Of a stretch of 64,000 nucleotides of DNA, positions 30,964 through 37,384 are shown piece after piece. Both the position numbers and the translations under genes were made by a program. Location of the stretch: sequence record NC_052653.1; one strand, written 5' to 3'. How positions within the stretch are numbered: position 1 is the stretch's first letter; the number at the start of each line of letters is the position of its first letter. The notes beneath the pieces are model-generated. The model ran no database searches. It saw nothing but the letters and a program-made list of their open reading frames with translations, and had not been told where the DNA came from. This stretch comes from Escherichia phage vB_vPM_PD06.

Positions 30964-31060
30964 TGGCAGCAAGGTGAGGAATCGAACCCCTTGATCTATG
31001 GTTTGGAGCCATATTGAGTACCATACTCTTTTAAATCTACCCAGCTATGAGTTCCTTGAG
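30964..31060 (-). ncRNA. tRNA-like sequence with Trp-type (CCA) anticodon hairpin, non-canonical 5' half
   Basis: T arm AGGGG/TTCGATT/CCTCA, 3' acceptor CCTTGCT-G-CCA, perfect hairpin TATGG-CTCCAAA-CCATA and D-like GAGT...ACTC, but no matching 5' acceptor strand at canonical distance. Confidence 0.3.
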
Positions 31061-32104: not shown

Positions 32105-32159
32105 TTAACAATATTACTCTAACATACTATTAGCCCCTTTGTCAAGAGGCTTTTGATAC

Positions 32160-33330: not shown

Positions 33331-33420
33331 TGGAGGAAGATAATGGAGTCGAACCATCACCGTATCGCTACAATGGGCCAGGGTTCAAACCTGGTTGCGC
33401 ACCGCTGCGCCCTACCTTCC
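33331..33420 (-). tRNA. tRNA-Ser (anticodon TGA), type II
   Basis: 90 nt; acceptor GGAAGGT/ATCTTCC, anticodon stem CCAGG/CCTGG, loop TTTGAAC, ~19-nt variable arm, T arm GATGG/TTCGACT/CCATT, CCA encoded. Confidence 0.6.
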
Positions 33421-33435
33421 CGTTATCATACTTTA

Positions 33436-33465
33436 AATCTAACATAAAACTATCTTGCTTGTCAA
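33436..33465 (-). promoter_or_regulatory. candidate sigma70-like promoter inside tRNA array
   Basis: Minus strand TTGACA, 18-nt spacer, TAGATT; upstream of tRNA-Ser(TGA). Confidence 0.3.
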
Positions 33466-33483: not shown

Positions 33484-33565
33484 TGGTCGGGGTGACAGGA
33501 TTCGAACCTGCATACTCCAATTACTCGGTTAACGCCTGATTAGAAGTCAGGTGAGATACACCCCG
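33484..33565 (-). ncRNA. tRNA-Arg(TCT)-like sequence lacking a canonical D arm
   Basis: 7 bp GC-rich acceptor CGGGGTG/CACCCCG, T arm GCAGG/TTCGAAT/CCTGT, perfect hairpin CCTGA-CTTCTAA-TCAGG, but only 7 nt between acceptor and that hairpin and a 23-nt insert before the T arm. Confidence 0.35.
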
Positions 33566-33637
33566 TTTTCACAGTAACTATAACAAAAAACTAAGTGAAT
33601 GTCAAGATATTTTTACTAAAATTATTATTTAAATTGA

Positions 33638-33743
33638 AGCCTAGTTATGGAATCGAACCATATTTCGTATTTAGTTAGACAAAGCGGTCTAACATATTTT
33701 TCAGGCTTTGATGGCCTCGGAATTACCAAATACCCTACTAGGC
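33638..33743 (-). ncRNA. 106-nt tRNA-like element
   Basis: T arm TATGG/TTCGATT/CCATA and exact 7 bp acceptor pairing GCCTAGT/ACTAGGC 106 nt apart; interior has hairpins AGGC-CATCAAA-GCCT and GTTAGAC-CGCTTT-GTCTAAC; no CCA encoded. Confidence 0.25.
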
Positions 33744-33862: not shown

Positions 33863-33938
33863 TGGTGGTTCCCCAGGGTTACAATCCCTGCCCTCGACAC
33901 TTATGAGGTGTGCGCTCTCGTCAGTGAGCTATGGAACC
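33863..33938 (-). tRNA. tRNA with CAT anticodon (second copy; Met or Ile2 type)
   Basis: 76 nt; D arm GCTC/GAGC perfect, anticodon loop CTCATAA, T stem CAGGG/CCCTG with atypical loop ATTGTAA, acceptor has one mismatch at 7-66. Confidence 0.45.
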
Positions 33939-34212: not shown

Positions 34213-34392
34213 AGTTTTCTCCTTTTTGTTTAACTTGGGCTTATCTTAGCAAATAACTAGCTATGTTGTCAACTAGTTTTTACAATATTTTTTCTTGATC
34301 TGTAACCTAGTGTATAACCGCATACAAAGGATACAATAGCAATAAAAACAGATAAGCCAAAAATAATTTCTGTAGACATACTGTTTCCTTAA

Positions 34393-34685: not shown

Positions 34686-36419
34686 TTAGTCAACCTGGAT
34701 GGTTCCCATAGTACGAAGAACCTCTACATCAACACGGTTGCGGATATCAGTGAATGTTTCATCACGACCTTCTACTTGTGGTGTAATAACCTTACCATTC
34801 TTGAAGATAACTTGTAACTCATTGTCTTCATCCTGGATATCTTTAAAAGAAAGATTATCTACAAGAGAAAGATTACCATTGGTATCATTAACAACCTTAA
34901 TAAAACCTTTTGCAGAGCGTTTACCAGGATCAGTTTTAGGCTCCTTACTTACCAAAATTTCGTGTTCACCGATGATACTACCTGTTGCTTTAACAGCAAA
35001 ACCAAAAGTATCTCGTGTATTGAACTGATAAGTATAACTACCAACACCAAATACAATATTGGAAGCTGCAAAACCTTTCTTCTTCAGTCGGCGTAAGATC
35101 TCGTGTTCTCGTTCAACAGTAATAGAATCACCATAAATCATACCGATATGCTGATCAAGAACCTTGTAGCCTTTTCGGTTGATAGTACCACCAAACACTT
35201 CCCAAAGGATTTGAATAGAACCTACTGCTTCACAATAAGGAATCTCATAAGTTTCATCAATACAGTCAGCAACACTGCAATCCTGAAGAACATTGTAATA
35301 CTTATTAACATCAGCCAAATGAACTACTTCAGTGGCTGTCGCAATACCATTATTTAAGAGGTCTTGATAGTTATCAAAAGATTCAACATTGTATCCTGCA
35401 ACAACTTTAACCGGATCTCCTGAATCTGGACGAATAACAAGACGACCATTTCGTGACATAATGGAATCTTTCAATTCTACCAGAATGCGAGTCAATACAG
35501 CCCAATAGTCATAAGAGTCTGCTACATATGAACAAAAACCTTCTGGAACAATTTCTTCGATATAACGACGAAGAAACTCTTTTTCTGCTACATAACGAAG
35601 CCCATCTACATCATCTTTAAGATGTGGGAAATGTTTCTTCAGATCTTCAACAATAGATCCAATGTTAGTCGTTGCTACTGAATGTTCTGTTGCCGGAATC
35701 GAACCTGCAACAAACTGATCATAATCAATACCATAATAGTCATGCACAGTTTCAATAGCCAGAATATTATCTGTTCCTGTGAACGATGCCAAGTGAGCGA
35801 TACCACTCTTATAACCATCTTCGATATTACTTAAACCACGTAGGCTAAAATCATGACACTGGAAGTTAACGTGATCAATATTATCACACGTTGCCATCGC
35901 ATATGCCATAGCGATACGCTTATACTGAAAAGCTGCTGTGGCATTAGTCATTGTCTTCCAAGTTTCATCTGACAACAGTGTTTCCACATAGTTAGTTAAC
36001 CAAAAGAATTTTTCTAAAGTATTATGCACAGTAAACACAGGAACACCAATAGGACACAAAACACCTTCTGGCAGAGATCGAACTTCCAGCGGAAGATAAC
36101 CTAAATCGTGCAATTCTCCCCAACATTCCGCAGAAGGAGCAGAAGCACCTAACGCATTTTTAGACATACGATAAAATTTATTTACTGCTGCACTACGAGA
36201 CATTTTAAAGAAGCTATCCCACATAGTTACAAGAGCATCAGTGACTGCTCGACGAATACCTAAAACAATCACACCACGTGCTTCACGATCTGCATAGTGT
36301 GCAAAGTTTTTATCATTACGAGGAGTTAAATTAGAGAAAATAAGTTTTGTATTTTGGTTGTACATCTGCTTGTGACCAGGTTTGTACCAATCAGTAGCAA
36401 AAGGTGCAAAAATATTCAT
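34686..36419 (-). CDS. nadV: nicotinamide phosphoribosyltransferase (NAMPT/NadV family)
   Basis: 577 aa; N-terminal TDWYKPGH motif and RPDSGDP motif characteristic of NAMPT-type phosphoribosyltransferases. Confidence 0.75.
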   Translation of the reverse strand: MNIFAPFATDWYKPGHKQMYNQNTKLIFSNLTPRNDKNFAHYADREARGVIVLGIRRAVTDALVTMWDSFFKMSRSAAVNKFYRMSKNALGASAPSAECWGELHDLGYLPLEVRSLPEGVLCPIGVPVFTVHNTLEKFFWLTNYVETLLSDETWKTMTNATAAFQYKRIAMAYAMATCDNIDHVNFQCHDFSLRGLSNIEDGYKSGIAHLASFTGTDNILAIETVHDYYGIDYDQFVAGSIPATEHSVATTNIGSIVEDLKKHFPHLKDDVDGLRYVAEKEFLRRYIEEIVPEGFCSYVADSYDYWAVLTRILVELKDSIMSRNGRLVIRPDSGDPVKVVAGYNVESFDNYQDLLNNGIATATEVVHLADVNKYYNVLQDCSVADCIDETYEIPYCEAVGSIQILWEVFGGTINRKGYKVLDQHIGMIYGDSITVEREHEILRRLKKKGFAASNIVFGVGSYTYQFNTRDTFGFAVKATGSIIGEHEILVSKEPKTDPGKRSAKGFIKVVNDTNGNLSLVDNLSFKDIQDEDNELQVIFKNGKVITPQVEGRDETFTDIRNRVDVEVLRTMGTIQVD

Positions 36420-36490: not shown

Positions 36491-37384
36491 TTAAAAATTC
36501 CACACGTATGGAGATACAATTTGTTGTTGCAAATCTGACTGATTCTTAACAAGAACACCAGAATCTTCTTGGATGTTATCTTCCCACACATTAAGAGAAT
36601 GAATGCAGTCAAAGTGCTCACTTAACTCTTTAAGACCTTTAGAAAAGATACCGTGTGTAACATATAGCTCAATCTTACCTGCGTTACGAGCACGTAGCAC
36701 TTTAGCCAATTCGATAAAAGTTCTACCACCATCACAGATATCATCTACGATCATCAGGTTACGCTTATTGAAATCCTGTACAGAAATGTCTGTACGAACA
36801 ATAGCACCTGTTGCGGTATCTCTAACCTTCTCTGCACAGAACACATCTAAAGACATTTTCTTAGATAATTTAAATATTTTCTTAAGAGCACCACCATCAG
36901 GGCTAACAAGAGCAAAATTCTCCATACGTAACTTCCACTTTAAAGTTTCGTAAGCAATCTCTTCTTGAGGCATTACACAGAGTCTGTCAAACACTGCTGG
37001 AGTAACATCACTATGCGGATCAGCAACGATAACACGTGAGAAATTTAATGAATTAATTATAGAAGCAAATGCTTTAACTCCGAATGCTTCCCCAGGCTCA
37101 CACACTCTGTCTTGTCGTGCATACGGCACATACAACATGAGTAAATCAACACAATATGGTTTATGATATAGCATATTGTCCAATGCATTCTTAGTCATAA
37201 CCAAAGTCATCAAGTCTTTAGCAGATCTTACTTCTAAAGTGAGTAAGATTCTGTCTGTAGCATGATTGAAACCTGATAGATTCGTATCTAATTGAACATG
37301 TTGTTCTCCACCAGAGAATGTAAACACTTTAACGTCTACATCAGTAACATAACAGTCAACACCATGCAGAATACTAACTTTCAT
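36491..37384 (-). CDS. prs: ribose-phosphate pyrophosphokinase (PRPP synthetase)
   Basis: 297 aa; PRPP-binding motif MIVDDICDGGRTF; adjacent to nadV. Confidence 0.7.
   Translation of the reverse strand: MKVSILHGVDCYVTDVDVKVFTFSGGEQHVQLDTNLSGFNHATDRILLTLEVRSAKDLMTLVMTKNALDNMLYHKPYCVDLLMLYVPYARQDRVCEPGEAFGVKAFASIINSLNFSRVIVADPHSDVTPAVFDRLCVMPQEEIAYETLKWKLRMENFALVSPDGGALKKIFKLSKKMSLDVFCAEKVRDTATGAIVRTDISVQDFNKRNLMIVDDICDGGRTFIELAKVLRARNAGKIELYVTHGIFSKGLKELSEHFDCIHSLNVWEDNIQEDSGVLVKNQSDLQQQIVSPYVWNF

What the first reader, a model, noticed from the sequence alone, without database searches (positions are those of the whole stretch)
33484..33565. tRNA-Arg(TCT)-like gene with no D arm and a 23-nt insert before the T arm
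A perfect GC-rich acceptor, a canonical T arm and a perfect CCTGA-CTTCTAA-TCAGG hairpin are present. Only 7 nt separate acceptor from that hairpin, and 23 nt (CGTTAACCGAGTAATTGGAGTAT, with a D-loop-like TTGGAG) precede the T arm. It may be a rearranged tRNA, a pseudogene or a non-canonical functional tRNA.
Basis: seen in the sequence. Interest (0 to 1): 0.5.

Follow-up and report, generated by a model that had tools for sequence, protein, structure and literature searches.

The report
Rewired arginine tRNA of phages
This phage gene, conserved in hundreds of phage genomes, most likely encodes a working arginine tRNA whose D arm is split into two strands that pair across the anticodon arm, a layout not found described for any tRNA of a bacterial system.

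Summary
Window 33484-33565 (minus strand) encodes an 82-nt tRNA-like RNA with a 7-bp acceptor stem, a 7-nt linker, a CCUGA-CUUCUAA-UCAGG anticodon arm (UCU), a 23-nt segment, a T arm and an encoded ACCA end.

It is not a pseudogene. The window comes from a phi92-like coliphage. The same gene is found in about 250 GenBank phage genomes and 84 loci from IMG/VR and genome-collection scans. All stems show compensatory changes.

"No D arm" is only half right. Linker bases 11-13 pair with bases 40-42 of the "insert" in 54 of 54 sequences, with perfect covariation. The motif that follows, UAAUUGGAG-UAU, matches the D loop (A14 A15 .. G18 G19 A20) plus the end of the variable loop of canonical phage tRNA-Arg.

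The D stem therefore appears to form around the anticodon arm rather than before it. An L-shaped core with changed strand connectivity is inferred from this.

Every relative carries an arginine anticodon (UCU, CCU, UCG, ACG or GCG). The gene is the only tRNA-Arg in this phage's tRNA cluster, and AGA makes up 30% of the phage's arginine codons. It has a near-consensus promoter of its own.

Most likely it is a functional AGA-decoding tRNA-Arg charged by the host ArgRS. Expression and charging are untested. I found no published description.

The parts
33577..33605 (-). Sigma-70-type promoter-like site, TTGACA-17 nt-TATAGT with a TG extension. It ends 12 nt upstream of the first base of the gene.
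   Evidence: This is the best match in the tRNA cluster (11 of 12 hexamer positions). It is conserved in close relatives (alignment A1). Activity was not tested.
33484..33565 (-). The whole gene: an 82-nt rewired tRNA-Arg(UCU), including discriminator A (33487) and encoded CCA (33484-33486). RNA position i corresponds to window coordinate 33566 - i.
   Evidence: Sequence read. Rfam tRNA model 40 bits. Family model R1 scores 99 bits here, against 25 bits or less for the canonical tRNAs of the window.
33559..33565 (-). Acceptor stem, 5' strand (RNA positions 1-7, CGGGGUG).
   Evidence: It pairs with positions 72-78. Across the family 99% of cells are paired, and all 7 pairs show changes on both sides.
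33556..33558 (-). Invariant U8 A9 U10 joining the acceptor stem to the long-range helix.
   Evidence: Invariant in 54 of 54 sequences (A3). U8 and A9 also match the canonical T5-like tRNA-Arg.
33553..33555 (-). 5' strand of the D-stem-like long-range helix (RNA 11-13, CUC). A14 (33552) follows as a one-base spacer before the anticodon stem.
   Evidence: Pairs 11:42, 12:41 and 13:40 are formed in 54 of 54 sequences. Pair 12:41 is UA 35, GC 11, AU 8; pair 13:40 is CG 44, GC 6, UA 4. Mutual information equals the full column entropy.
33535..33551 (-). Anticodon arm (RNA 15-31): CCUGA CUUCUAA UCAGG. The anticodon UCU lies at 33542-33544.
   Evidence: The stem is 96% paired with changes on both sides in all 5 pairs. 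The anticodon is UCU in 53 of 54 sequences and CCU in 1.
33527..33534 (-). Connector CGUUAA + 2 variable nt (RNA 32-39), running from the 3' end of the anticodon stem to the 3' strand of the long-range helix.
   Evidence: C32 G33 U34 U35 A36 A37 are invariant; positions 38 and 39 vary. Pair 14:39 forms in only 10 of 54 sequences. Its role is unknown.
33524..33526 (-). 3' strand of the D-stem-like helix (RNA 40-42, GAG).
   Evidence: Same evidence as for the 5' strand. A divergent relative has G11-C42 in place of C11-G42 (L040 13348-13426).
33512..33523 (-). D-loop-like and variable-loop-like strand (RNA 43-54): U AAUUGGAG UAU.
   Evidence: Nearly invariant across the family. It matches the D loop AAUGGA(U)A or AAGGGAG of canonical phage tRNA-Arg and the UAU that ends their variable loop. 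The assignments A50 = A20 and G48 G49 = G18 G19 are inferred.
33495..33511 (-). T arm (RNA 55-71): GCAGG UUCGAAU CCUGU.
   Evidence: 99% paired, with changes on both sides in 4 of 5 pairs. It is identical to the T arm of a T5-like canonical tRNA-Arg(UCU).
33488..33494 (-). Acceptor stem, 3' strand (RNA 72-78, CACCCCG).
   Evidence: It is followed by discriminator A. Across the family the discriminator is G in 30 sequences, A in 20, U in 3 and C in 1.

Best explanation
The element is a transcribed gene for a functional arginine tRNA (anticodon UCU, reading AGA and probably AGG). It belongs to a phage-restricted lineage of tRNA-Arg whose core is rewired.

In a canonical tRNA the D hairpin sits between the acceptor and anticodon stems. 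Here the strand right after U8 A9 U10 (C11 N12 N13) runs straight into the anticodon stem. It pairs with N40 N41 G42, which lie 3' of the anticodon arm. This short helix can stack on the anticodon stem the way a D stem does.

The chain that leaves the helix carries a D-loop motif (A44 A45 N U G48 G49 A50). It then enters the T stem through UAU, the equivalent of variable-loop positions 46-48.

Inferred consequences:
- The RNA keeps an L-shaped body with the elbow contacts (GG to the T loop) and the major ArgRS determinant (A20 equivalent).
- It is charged by the host ArgRS, carried by EF-Tu, and supplies AGA decoding for a phage that uses AGA heavily in a host where that tRNA is scarce.

A plausible origin is a swap of canonical segments 10-21 and 22-43 of an ordinary phage tRNA-Arg(UCU), for example by duplication followed by deletion.

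What is shown: the sequence anatomy, the conservation, the covariation, the arginine-only anticodons, the promoter-like site and the codon usage. What is inferred: transcription, processing, the three-dimensional fold, arginylation, use on the ribosome, and any selective advantage of the rewiring.
For: 1. The anatomy is as described, and the Rfam tRNA model finds no canonical fold.

2. Full-length homologs occur in unrelated phage groups: Justusliebigvirus (including phi92), Felixounavirus, jumbo 121Q-like phages, Vequintavirinae, Klebsiella Sugarland-like phages, and Streptomyces and Rhodococcus phages. About 250 GenBank records carry it, plus 84 loci from the IMG/VR and genome-collection scans (55 distinct sequences). 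Conservation starts at RNA position 1 and stops at the 3' end.

3. The acceptor, anticodon and T stems are 96-99% paired with many compensatory changes.

4. Helix 11-13:40-42 is paired in 54 of 54 sequences. There are 8 different base-pair combinations at its two variable pairs (12:41 and 13:40), and each column's best mutual-information partner is its proposed mate. The search patterns left these columns free. The rival local hairpin 38-41:46-49 does not covary.

5. Every RNA of this architecture found in 1.48 Mb of phage DNA has an arginine anticodon: UCU, CCU, UCG, ACG or GCG. C35 is constant across these.

6. The base after GG is A in 53 of 54 sequences and the discriminator is A or G in 50 of 54. 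These are the bacterial arginine determinants A20, C35, U/G36 and A/G73 (PMC9976931).

7. In large phage tRNA clusters the element is the only UCU tRNA. This window has 15 canonical tRNAs and no other tRNA-Arg. The curated Paula genome lists 16 tRNAs, none of them Arg, and the element sits in an unannotated gap there.

8. AGA is 30.5% of arginine codons in the window's long ORFs.

9. A near-consensus promoter-like site lies 12 nt upstream. CCA is encoded in 41 of 55 distinct family sequences.

10. Positions 1-9 are identical, and the last 31 nt nearly so (2 mismatches), to a canonical T5-like tRNA-Arg(UCU). That tRNA's D loop (AAGGGAG) and variable-loop end (UAU) correspond to AAUUGGAG-UAU here.

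11. The E. coli ribosome and EF-Tu, and HisRS for charging, accept an engineered D-arm-less histidine tRNA (PMC11551756).
Against: - There are no expression, processing, aminoacylation or structure-probing data.
- The 3-bp helix is not predicted by RNAalifold. It costs about +1 kcal/mol in nearest-neighbour energy relative to leaving it open, and the single-sequence MFE prefers a local hairpin. Its support is covariation only.
- C11-G42 and the whole D-loop-like strand are nearly invariant within the main family, so their pairings and tertiary roles cannot be tested by covariation.
- The invariant CGUUAA connector has no assigned role. Such invariance would also suit a protein-binding decoy.
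- The anticodon loop is the ordinary CUUCUAA, so evasion of loop-directed nucleases would not be explained.
- No selective advantage of the rewiring has been demonstrated.
Confidence: 0.7

Rival explanations
1. It is a tRNA-like decoy or regulator, not an adaptor in translation. For example, it might titrate or block a host tRNA-directed nuclease, a modification enzyme or ArgRS, with the invariant CGUUAA and UAAUUGGAGUAU segments serving as protein-binding sites.
For: The single-stranded segments are unusually invariant. The fold is non-canonical and standard tRNA finders miss it. Phage tRNAs are known to counter tRNA-targeting defences (PMC10264068 and the PARIS preprint, listed).
Against: The anticodon is always an arginine one, and five different arginine anticodons occur in variants, as expected for decoding rather than mimicry. 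The element fills the empty UCU slot in otherwise near-complete phage tRNA sets. The arginine identity elements and the CCA end are kept. The phage's AGA usage is high. A decoy role could also coexist with decoding.
Confidence: 0.13
2. It is a functional D-arm-less tRNA of the mitochondrial type, as the first reader literally described. On this view there is no D-stem equivalent, the 23-nt segment is a flexible or hairpin-forming variable region, the molecule is Y-shaped or floppy rather than a rewired L, and the 11-13:40-42 pairing is absent or transient.
For: The MFE and centroid folds place a local hairpin at 38-41:46-49 and leave the linker unpaired. RNAalifold predicts only three helices. 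Forming the long-range helix costs energy in the nearest-neighbour model.
Against: Pairs 12:41 and 13:40 covary perfectly in 54 of 54 sequences, across 8 base-pair combinations. The local hairpin is only 72% paired, with no informative covariation, and pair 41:46 is broken in 27 of 54 sequences. The GG-A motif and the UAU are conserved as in canonical D and variable loops, which a floppy spacer would not need.
Confidence: 0.1
3. It is a decaying or recombinant tRNA pseudogene: a relic of a tRNA-Arg gene damaged by rearrangement, with no function.
For: ARAGORN fails to call it. Most GenBank records leave it unannotated or mislabel it. One truncated copy exists (L085).
Against: The gene is conserved at 80-100% identity across phages of Proteobacteria and Actinobacteria, with compensatory substitutions in four helices and sharp conservation boundaries. 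Among close relatives it is invariant apart from the discriminator, even where the neighbouring odd tRNA-like gene has been deleted.
Confidence: 0.02

Closest known systems
Canonical bacterial and phage tRNA-Arg(UCU), for example the T5-like phage tRNA-Arg (L167 47-121) and E. coli argU
   Same: It has a 7-bp acceptor stem, a 5-bp T stem with a UUCGAAU loop, and an anticodon arm with the loop CUUCUAA. It also carries a D-loop motif ending in GGA(G), a UAU before the T stem, an A or G discriminator, and CCA. Positions 1-9 are identical, and the last 31 nt nearly so (2 mismatches), to the T5-like gene.
   Different: There is no D hairpin between the acceptor and anticodon stems. The two strands of the D-stem equivalent lie on either side of the anticodon arm. 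The D-loop motif lies 3' of the anticodon arm. An invariant 8-nt CGUUAANN connector is added. ARAGORN does not recognise it.
Metazoan mitochondrial D-arm-less tRNAs (bovine mt tRNA-Ser(AGY); nematode mt tRNA-Ser(UCU); reviewed in PMC7609411)
   Same: There is no D hairpin, and a short connector joins the acceptor and anticodon stems.
   Different: The mitochondrial tRNAs are truncated (about 55-65 nt). They lack the GG/T-loop elbow and work with co-evolved mitochondrial factors. This RNA is full-sized (79 nt plus CCA), keeps the GG-A motif and a canonical T loop, has a covarying D-stem substitute, and must work with the ordinary bacterial machinery.
Circularly permuted and split tRNA genes (Cyanidioschyzon merolae; the archaeon Thermofilum; PMC3218864, title and abstract)
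   Same: The order of the tRNA segments in the gene differs from the canonical order.
   Different: In those cases the 3' half precedes the 5' half, and processing restores a canonical mature tRNA. Here the acceptor ends are in normal order. The swap is internal (segments 10-21 and 22-43), and no processing route to a canonical molecule is apparent.
Class II tRNAs and allo-tRNAs or tRNA-Sec-like tRNAs with 8/4 or 9/3 acceptor branches, some found in phages (PMC5389517)
   Same: They are non-standard tRNAs found in phage and bacterial metagenomes, with extra nucleotides between the anticodon and T arms.
   Different: They keep a normal D arm, and the extra nucleotides form a self-contained variable hairpin. 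Here the extra segment pairs with the 5' linker and carries the D-loop motif. The acceptor/T branch is the standard 7/5.
Engineered mini HisT, a D-arm-less tRNA usable by E. coli (PMC11551756)
   Same: It shows that the bacterial ribosome, EF-Tu and a synthetase tolerate a tRNA without a D hairpin.
   Different: Mini HisT is artificial, has no D-stem or D-loop substitute, and needed a pnp mutation for stability. The phage RNA is natural, widespread, and retains D-domain elements in rewired form.

Membership tests
tRNA (Rfam RF00005, cloverleaf) | Score at or above the family's gathering threshold | tested here: met
   40 bits against a gathering score of 29, with model positions 1-71 matched.
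tRNA (Rfam RF00005, cloverleaf) | 7-bp acceptor stem, 5-bp T stem with a T-loop consensus, and a 5-bp anticodon stem with a 7-nt loop carrying U33 and a purine at 37 | tested here: met
   Seen in the sequence. The stems are 96-99% paired with compensatory changes across 54 sequences.
tRNA (Rfam RF00005, cloverleaf) | D hairpin (positions 10-25) between the acceptor and anticodon stems | tested here: not met
   In the Rfam alignment 15 model positions are replaced by 4 nt. Only 7 nt separate the two stems. ARAGORN makes no call.
Bacterial tRNA-Arg (identity set for ArgRS; PMC9976931) | C35 and U36 or G36 in the anticodon | tested here: met
   The anticodon is UCU in 53 of 54 sequences and CCU in 1. 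Variants carry UCG, ACG and GCG.
Bacterial tRNA-Arg (identity set for ArgRS; PMC9976931) | Discriminator A73 or G73 | tested here: met
   A in the window. Across the family it is G in 30, A in 20, U in 3 and C in 1.
Bacterial tRNA-Arg (identity set for ArgRS; PMC9976931) | A20 in the D loop, the main determinant | tested here: inconclusive
   An A follows the GG dinucleotide in 53 of 54 sequences, within a motif that matches canonical tRNA-Arg D loops. Whether it occupies the spatial position of A20 cannot be shown from sequence.
Bacterial tRNA-Arg (identity set for ArgRS; PMC9976931) | Arginylation by ArgRS and use in translation | not testable with these tools
   This needs aminoacylation assays or tRNA sequencing.
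Mitochondrial-type D-arm-less tRNA | A truncated body with no D-stem equivalent and no D-loop/T-loop elbow elements | tested here: not met
   The RNA is 79 nt. A covarying helix 11-13:40-42 is present, along with a conserved GG-A motif and a canonical T loop.
Circularly permuted tRNA gene | The 3' half is encoded upstream of the 5' half, with processing to a canonical tRNA | tested here: not met
   The acceptor 5' and 3' strands are in normal order and flank the gene. The rearrangement is internal.
tRNA pseudogene | No purifying selection: broken stems and a patchy, lineage-restricted distribution | tested here: not met

The most novel reading that the evidence does not exclude
Phages of Enterobacteria and Actinobacteria carry a natural lineage of arginine tRNAs with a topologically rewired core: the D stem forms around the anticodon arm and the D loop is moved 3' of it. 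If these are charged and used by the unmodified bacterial translation machinery, they would be the first non-cloverleaf tRNAs known to work in a bacterial system. They might also give the phage an arginine adaptor that escapes host or phage factors which recognise the canonical tRNA-Arg body.
Probability: 0.45. Interest if true: 0.9.

Novelty: new variant of a known kind. Interest (0 to 1): 0.8.

Why it matters
[quoted passage not shown] Departures from it are treated as a mitochondrial peculiarity. A conserved, arginine-specific tRNA with different strand connectivity, present in well-studied coliphages (phi92, Felix O1-like, 121Q-like), would show three things:

- The L-shape can be built with another wiring and still serve ArgRS, EF-Tu, RNase P and the ribosome.
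- Standard annotation systematically misses or mislabels a real tRNA. About 250 GenBank phage genomes carry it, and in the 60 rows listed it is mostly unannotated, or labelled tRNA-OTHER, Val, Leu or TERM, or overlaid by hypothetical CDSs. Phage tRNA and codon-usage analyses that find no AGA tRNA in these phages are therefore incomplete.
- Nature offers a scaffold for orthogonal tRNA design.

It also opens a testable question: why only arginine tRNAs? ArgRS reads A20 in the D loop, which is unusual among synthetases.

Tried and rejected
- A canonical alternative fold. The Rfam covariance model aligns the D arm as deleted, and no D hairpin can be drawn from the 7-nt linker.
- The MFE hairpin CCGA-GUAA-UUGG in the 23-nt segment. 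I rejected it because it is only 72% paired with no covariation.
- Pairing of U8 A9 U10 with G51 U52 A53. This is possible in the main family but absent in the divergent ACG and GCG variants (read), so I dropped it.
- A mini D-like hairpin G42 U43 A44 / U52 A53 U54. All six bases are invariant, so it cannot be tested. It fits poorly with variants that carry an extra hairpin after GGAGU and conflicts with C11-G42. It remains unresolved.
- ARAGORN calls of long tRNA-Arg(tct) at L043, L060 and L040. The first two are the same element drawn with spurious outer stems; the third is a divergent family member.
- The loose pattern scan returned mostly chance matches and was replaced by a tighter one.
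- The genome-contig scan gave 2 true hits, on contigs of 36-41 kb from metagenome-assembled genomes, plus 3 chance hits.
- A search of 5,426 complete E. coli genomes found nothing.
- Seven literature searches found no description of such a tRNA. This is absence in the held library only.
- RNAalifold and nearest-neighbour energies do not support the long-range helix on their own.

Full report
**1. The observation**

The window is a phi92-like coliphage (Justusliebigvirus). The 701 bases around the finding are 100% identical to Escherichia phage vB_vPM_PD114 and 97-99.9% identical to 27 more of the 40 listed records.

The minus strand between 30.9 and 33.9 kb holds a tRNA gene cluster. ARAGORN tRNAs there, none for arginine, and calls nothing at 33484-33565.

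Read on the minus strand, that stretch is CGGGGUG UAUCUCA CCUGA CUUCUAA UCAGG CGUUAACCGAGUAAUUGGAGUAU GCAGG UUCGAAU CCUGU CACCCCG A CCA.

Rfam's tRNA covariance model matches it at 40 bits (gathering score 29). Its alignment shows the same anatomy: the D arm is deleted (15 model positions replaced by 4 nt) and 20 nt are inserted before the T arm. The covariance model therefore offers no canonical alternative fold.

**2. It is a conserved gene, not an accident**

Among close relatives the 82 nt are invariant except for the discriminator (A or G). This holds even where the neighbouring tRNA-like gene has been cleanly deleted (A1).

Full-length homologs at 80-87% identity occur in unrelated phages:
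- Felixounavirus
- 121Q-like jumbo phages
- Proteus phage Mydo and Klebsiella phages of about 145 kb
- Sugarland-like Klebsiella siphoviruses
- Streptomyces (BoomerJR, Yaboi) and Rhodococcus phages

About 250 GenBank phage records hold it, including phi92 itself. In the 60 rows listed, most have no annotation there, or it is labelled tRNA-OTHER, tRNA-Undet, tRNA-Val, tRNA-Leu or tRNA-TERM, or it is overlaid by a hypothetical CDS.

In the cross-family alignment, conservation begins at RNA position 1 and ends at the 3' terminus, while the flanks are unrelated (A2).

The pattern scans returned 84 loci with 55 distinct sequences, nearly all from IMG/VR. The same pattern found only two true copies in 185,579 species-representative bacterial and archaeal genomes. 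Both lie on contigs of 36-41 kb from metagenome-assembled genomes. A search of 5,426 complete E. coli genomes found no copy. The family therefore appears restricted to phages.

**3. Structure from covariation**

I used an alignment of 54 distinct sequences whose columns equal the window's RNA numbering (A3).
- The acceptor stem is 99% paired, the anticodon stem 96%, and the T stem 99%. Sixteen of these 17 pairs show changes on both sides.
- The new result is a fourth helix. C11 N12 N13 of the "linker" pairs with N40 N41 G42 of the "insert" in 54 of 54 sequences.
- Pair 12:41 is U-A in 35 sequences, G-C in 11 and A-U in 8. Pair 13:40 is C-G in 44, G-C in 6 and U-A in 4. No sequence is unpaired at either pair.
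- Eight different combinations occur at these two variable pairs: CUC/GAG, CAC/GUG, CGC/GCG, CGG/CCG, CAG/CUG, CAU/AUG, CGU/ACG and CUU/AAG.
- The mutual information between 12 and 41, and between 13 and 40, equals the full column entropy. Each column's best partner is its proposed mate.
- The search pattern left these four columns free, so the covariation is not an artefact of how the sequences were collected.
- C11-G42 is invariant in the main family but is G-C in a divergent relative (L040 13348-13426).
- Pair 14:39 forms in only 10 of 54 sequences.
- The hairpin that single-sequence folding puts in the 23-nt segment (38-41:46-49) is only 72% paired and does not covary.

There are caveats. 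RNAalifold does not predict the 3-bp helix. In the nearest-neighbour model it costs about 1 kcal/mol relative to leaving it open. Like many D stems, it would depend on tertiary context.

**4. What the remaining nucleotides look like**

U8 A9 U10 are invariant. So are C32 G33 U34 U35 A36 A37, and G42 U43 A44 A45. U47 G48 G49 A50 G51 U52 A53 U54 are invariant or nearly so.

Canonical tRNA-Arg genes from the same phage loci have D loops reading AAUGGAUA, AAUGGAAUA or AGUGGAUA. A T5-like canonical tRNA-Arg(UCU) reads CGGGGUG UA GUCU AAGGGAG AGGC A GGAGU CUUCUAA AUUCC UUUAU GCAGG UUCGAAU CCUGU CACCUCG G CCA.

Compared with the window RNA, positions 1-9 are identical and the last 31 nt differ at two positions. 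The T5-like D loop AAGGGAG and the variable-loop end UAU correspond to AAUUGGAG-UAU in the window.

The 23-nt "insert" thus has four parts:
- a connector (CGUUAANN)
- one strand of a D-stem-like helix (GAG)
- a D-loop motif (A14 A15 .. G18 G19 A20 equivalents)
- the last three variable-loop bases

**5. The model (inference)**

The 5' strand of the new helix continues through a single base (A14) into the 5' strand of the anticodon stem. The helix can therefore stack on the anticodon stem with the same continuous strand that positions 22-25, 26 and 27-31 form in a canonical tRNA.

On that mapping:
- 11-13 occupy the place of 23-25.
- A14 occupies the place of 26.
- 40-43 occupy the place of 10-13.
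- The chain leaving the helix runs toward the elbow as the D loop does, then enters the T stem as position 48 does.
- U8 keeps its place, and A9 falls near where A21 lies.

Relative to the canonical order, segments 10-21 and 22-43 have changed places. Duplication followed by deletion could produce this.

Variants with an extra hairpin inserted after GGAGU (L138, L143) place it where long variable arms sit in class II tRNAs. That fits the mapping.

The role of the invariant CGUUAA connector is unknown. It may supply groove contacts normally made by positions 9, 45 and 46, or it may bind a protein.

**6. Why it is probably a working tRNA-Arg**

- A structural descriptor scan and the family covariance model were run over 1.48 Mb of phage DNA. 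Every RNA of this architecture had an arginine anticodon: UCU (many), CCU, UCG, ACG or GCG. Sometimes two isoacceptors occur in one phage. No other amino acid was represented.
- The bacterial arginine identity set is A20, C35, U/G36 and A/G73. A20 is the main determinant, which is unusual among the tRNA families (PMC9976931). The family keeps C35 and U36 or G36. An A follows GG in 53 of 54 sequences, and the discriminator is a purine in 50 of 54.
- In large clusters (23, 28, 15 and 13 tRNAs) the element is the only UCU tRNA.
- In this window, and in the curated Paula genome (16 tRNAs), there is no other tRNA-Arg.
- AGA is 30.5% of arginine codons (12 per 1000 codons) in the window's long ORFs. 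From general knowledge, AGA is rare in E. coli.
- The best sigma-70-like site of the cluster, TTGACA-17-TATAGT with a TG extension, ends 12 nt upstream of the gene.
- CCA is encoded in 41 of 55 distinct family sequences.
- The E. coli ribosome and EF-Tu, and HisRS for charging, accept an engineered D-arm-less histidine tRNA (PMC11551756).

None of this shows transcription, charging or decoding. Those steps remain inferences.

**7. Rival explanations**

- Pseudogene: excluded by the comparative data.
- A floppy, mitochondrial-type D-arm-less tRNA: disfavoured by the perfect covariation and by the retained D-loop motif.
- A tRNA-like decoy or regulator: not excluded. The invariance of the single-stranded segments would suit it. 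But the arginine-only spread of anticodons and the empty UCU slot argue for decoding, and the two roles could coexist.
- Why the rewiring is kept is unknown. Escape from a factor that recognises the canonical tRNA-Arg body is speculation, and the anticodon loop itself is the ordinary CUUCUAA.

**8. Comparison with what is known, and novelty**

The closest relatives are canonical phage tRNA-Arg(UCU) genes, which have the same ends, loop motifs and identity elements but different connectivity.

It resembles mitochondrial D-arm-less tRNAs only in lacking the hairpin. It resembles permuted tRNA genes only in having a changed segment order. It differs from allo-tRNAs and class II tRNAs, which keep the D arm (PMC7609411, PMC5389517, PMC3218864).

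Seven full-text searches found no description of such a tRNA. [quoted passage not shown]

I rate it a new variant of a known kind. The caveat is that the library does not hold subscription-only literature.

**9. Verdict**

The "missing" D arm is in fact split and rewired.

Noticed in passing
window 33639-33743 (-): A second non-canonical tRNA-like gene of about 105 nt lies between the rewired tRNA-Arg and tRNA-Leu(taa). It has acceptor GCCUAGU/ACUAGGC and a D-arm-like GGUA-UUUGGUAA-UUCC. A 4-bp stem carries the loop CAUCAAA, with UCA in the anticodon position but A at position 33. The ~41-nt variable region holds a 7-bp hairpin, followed by the T arm UAUGG-UUCGAUU-CCAUA. Neither ARAGORN nor Rfam calls it. 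It is present in 28 phi92-like phages and cleanly deleted in KKE7M and Paula. Homologs at ~70% identity with compensatory acceptor changes occur in Erwinia phage Hena1 (annotated tRNA-sup(tca)) and Salmonella phage UTK0002. It may be an opal-suppressor-like tRNA.
   Followed up: partly
window 33863-33938 (-): The tRNA-Met(cat) called by ARAGORN is not matched by the Rfam tRNA model even at E <= 10. Its D loop (ACUGACGA) lacks the GG dinucleotide, and its T loop reads AUUGUAA instead of UUCRANY. Both partners of the elbow contact are therefore non-standard.
   Followed up: partly
window 33331-33420 (-): The 90-nt tRNA-Ser(tga) called by ARAGORN falls below the Rfam tRNA gathering score. Its best Rfam match is the tRNA-Sec model, at 35 bits against a gathering score of 47.
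   Followed up: no
window 30967-31027 (-): A weak tRNA-model match (22.9 bits) lies next to tRNA-Ile. It has a UAUGG-CUCCAAA-CCAUA hairpin (CCA, a Trp-type anticodon), a T arm and a CCA end, but I could find no 5' acceptor strand. It may be a tRNA remnant or another odd tRNA.
   Followed up: no
IMG/VR loci L131 3788-3865; L163 2689-2763; L138 10185-10274; L143 3326-3402 and 3407-3493; L040 12999-13077 and 13348-13426: The same rewired architecture occurs with other arginine anticodons (UCG, ACG, ACG, GCG, UCG, CCU) and as a divergent UCU form. Two of these carry an additional hairpin after the GGAGU motif. L143 has two of these genes directly adjacent to each other.
   Followed up: partly
L060 10443-10536; L085 6111-6183: In L060 a 7-bp leader-trailer pairing (UCAGAGC/GCUCUGA) extends the acceptor stem of the rewired gene, which misled ARAGORN into a 94-nt call. 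In L085 the gene is truncated after position ~46 and continues into unrelated sequence, so it is a genuine broken copy.
   Followed up: no
window 34686-36419 (-) and 36491-37384 (-): The two long ORFs just upstream of the tRNA cluster correspond by position to Paula genes annotated as nicotinamide phosphoribosyltransferase and phosphoribosyl pyrophosphate synthase (Phi92_gp108 and gp107). This would be an NAD-salvage pair next to the tRNA block. I did not verify it by a protein search.
   Followed up: no
GenBank records MG065639, MG065645, MG065656, MG065689: Records labelled Campylobacter phage with host Campylobacter jejuni are 98% identical to this E. coli phi92-like tRNA region. The host labels look doubtful.
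   Followed up: no
window 32116-32145, 33436-33465, 33577-33605, 34243-34272 (-): Four TTGACA-type promoter-like sites with a TG-extended -10 element are spread through the tRNA cluster on the coding strand. This suggests several short transcription units rather than one polycistron.
   Followed up: no
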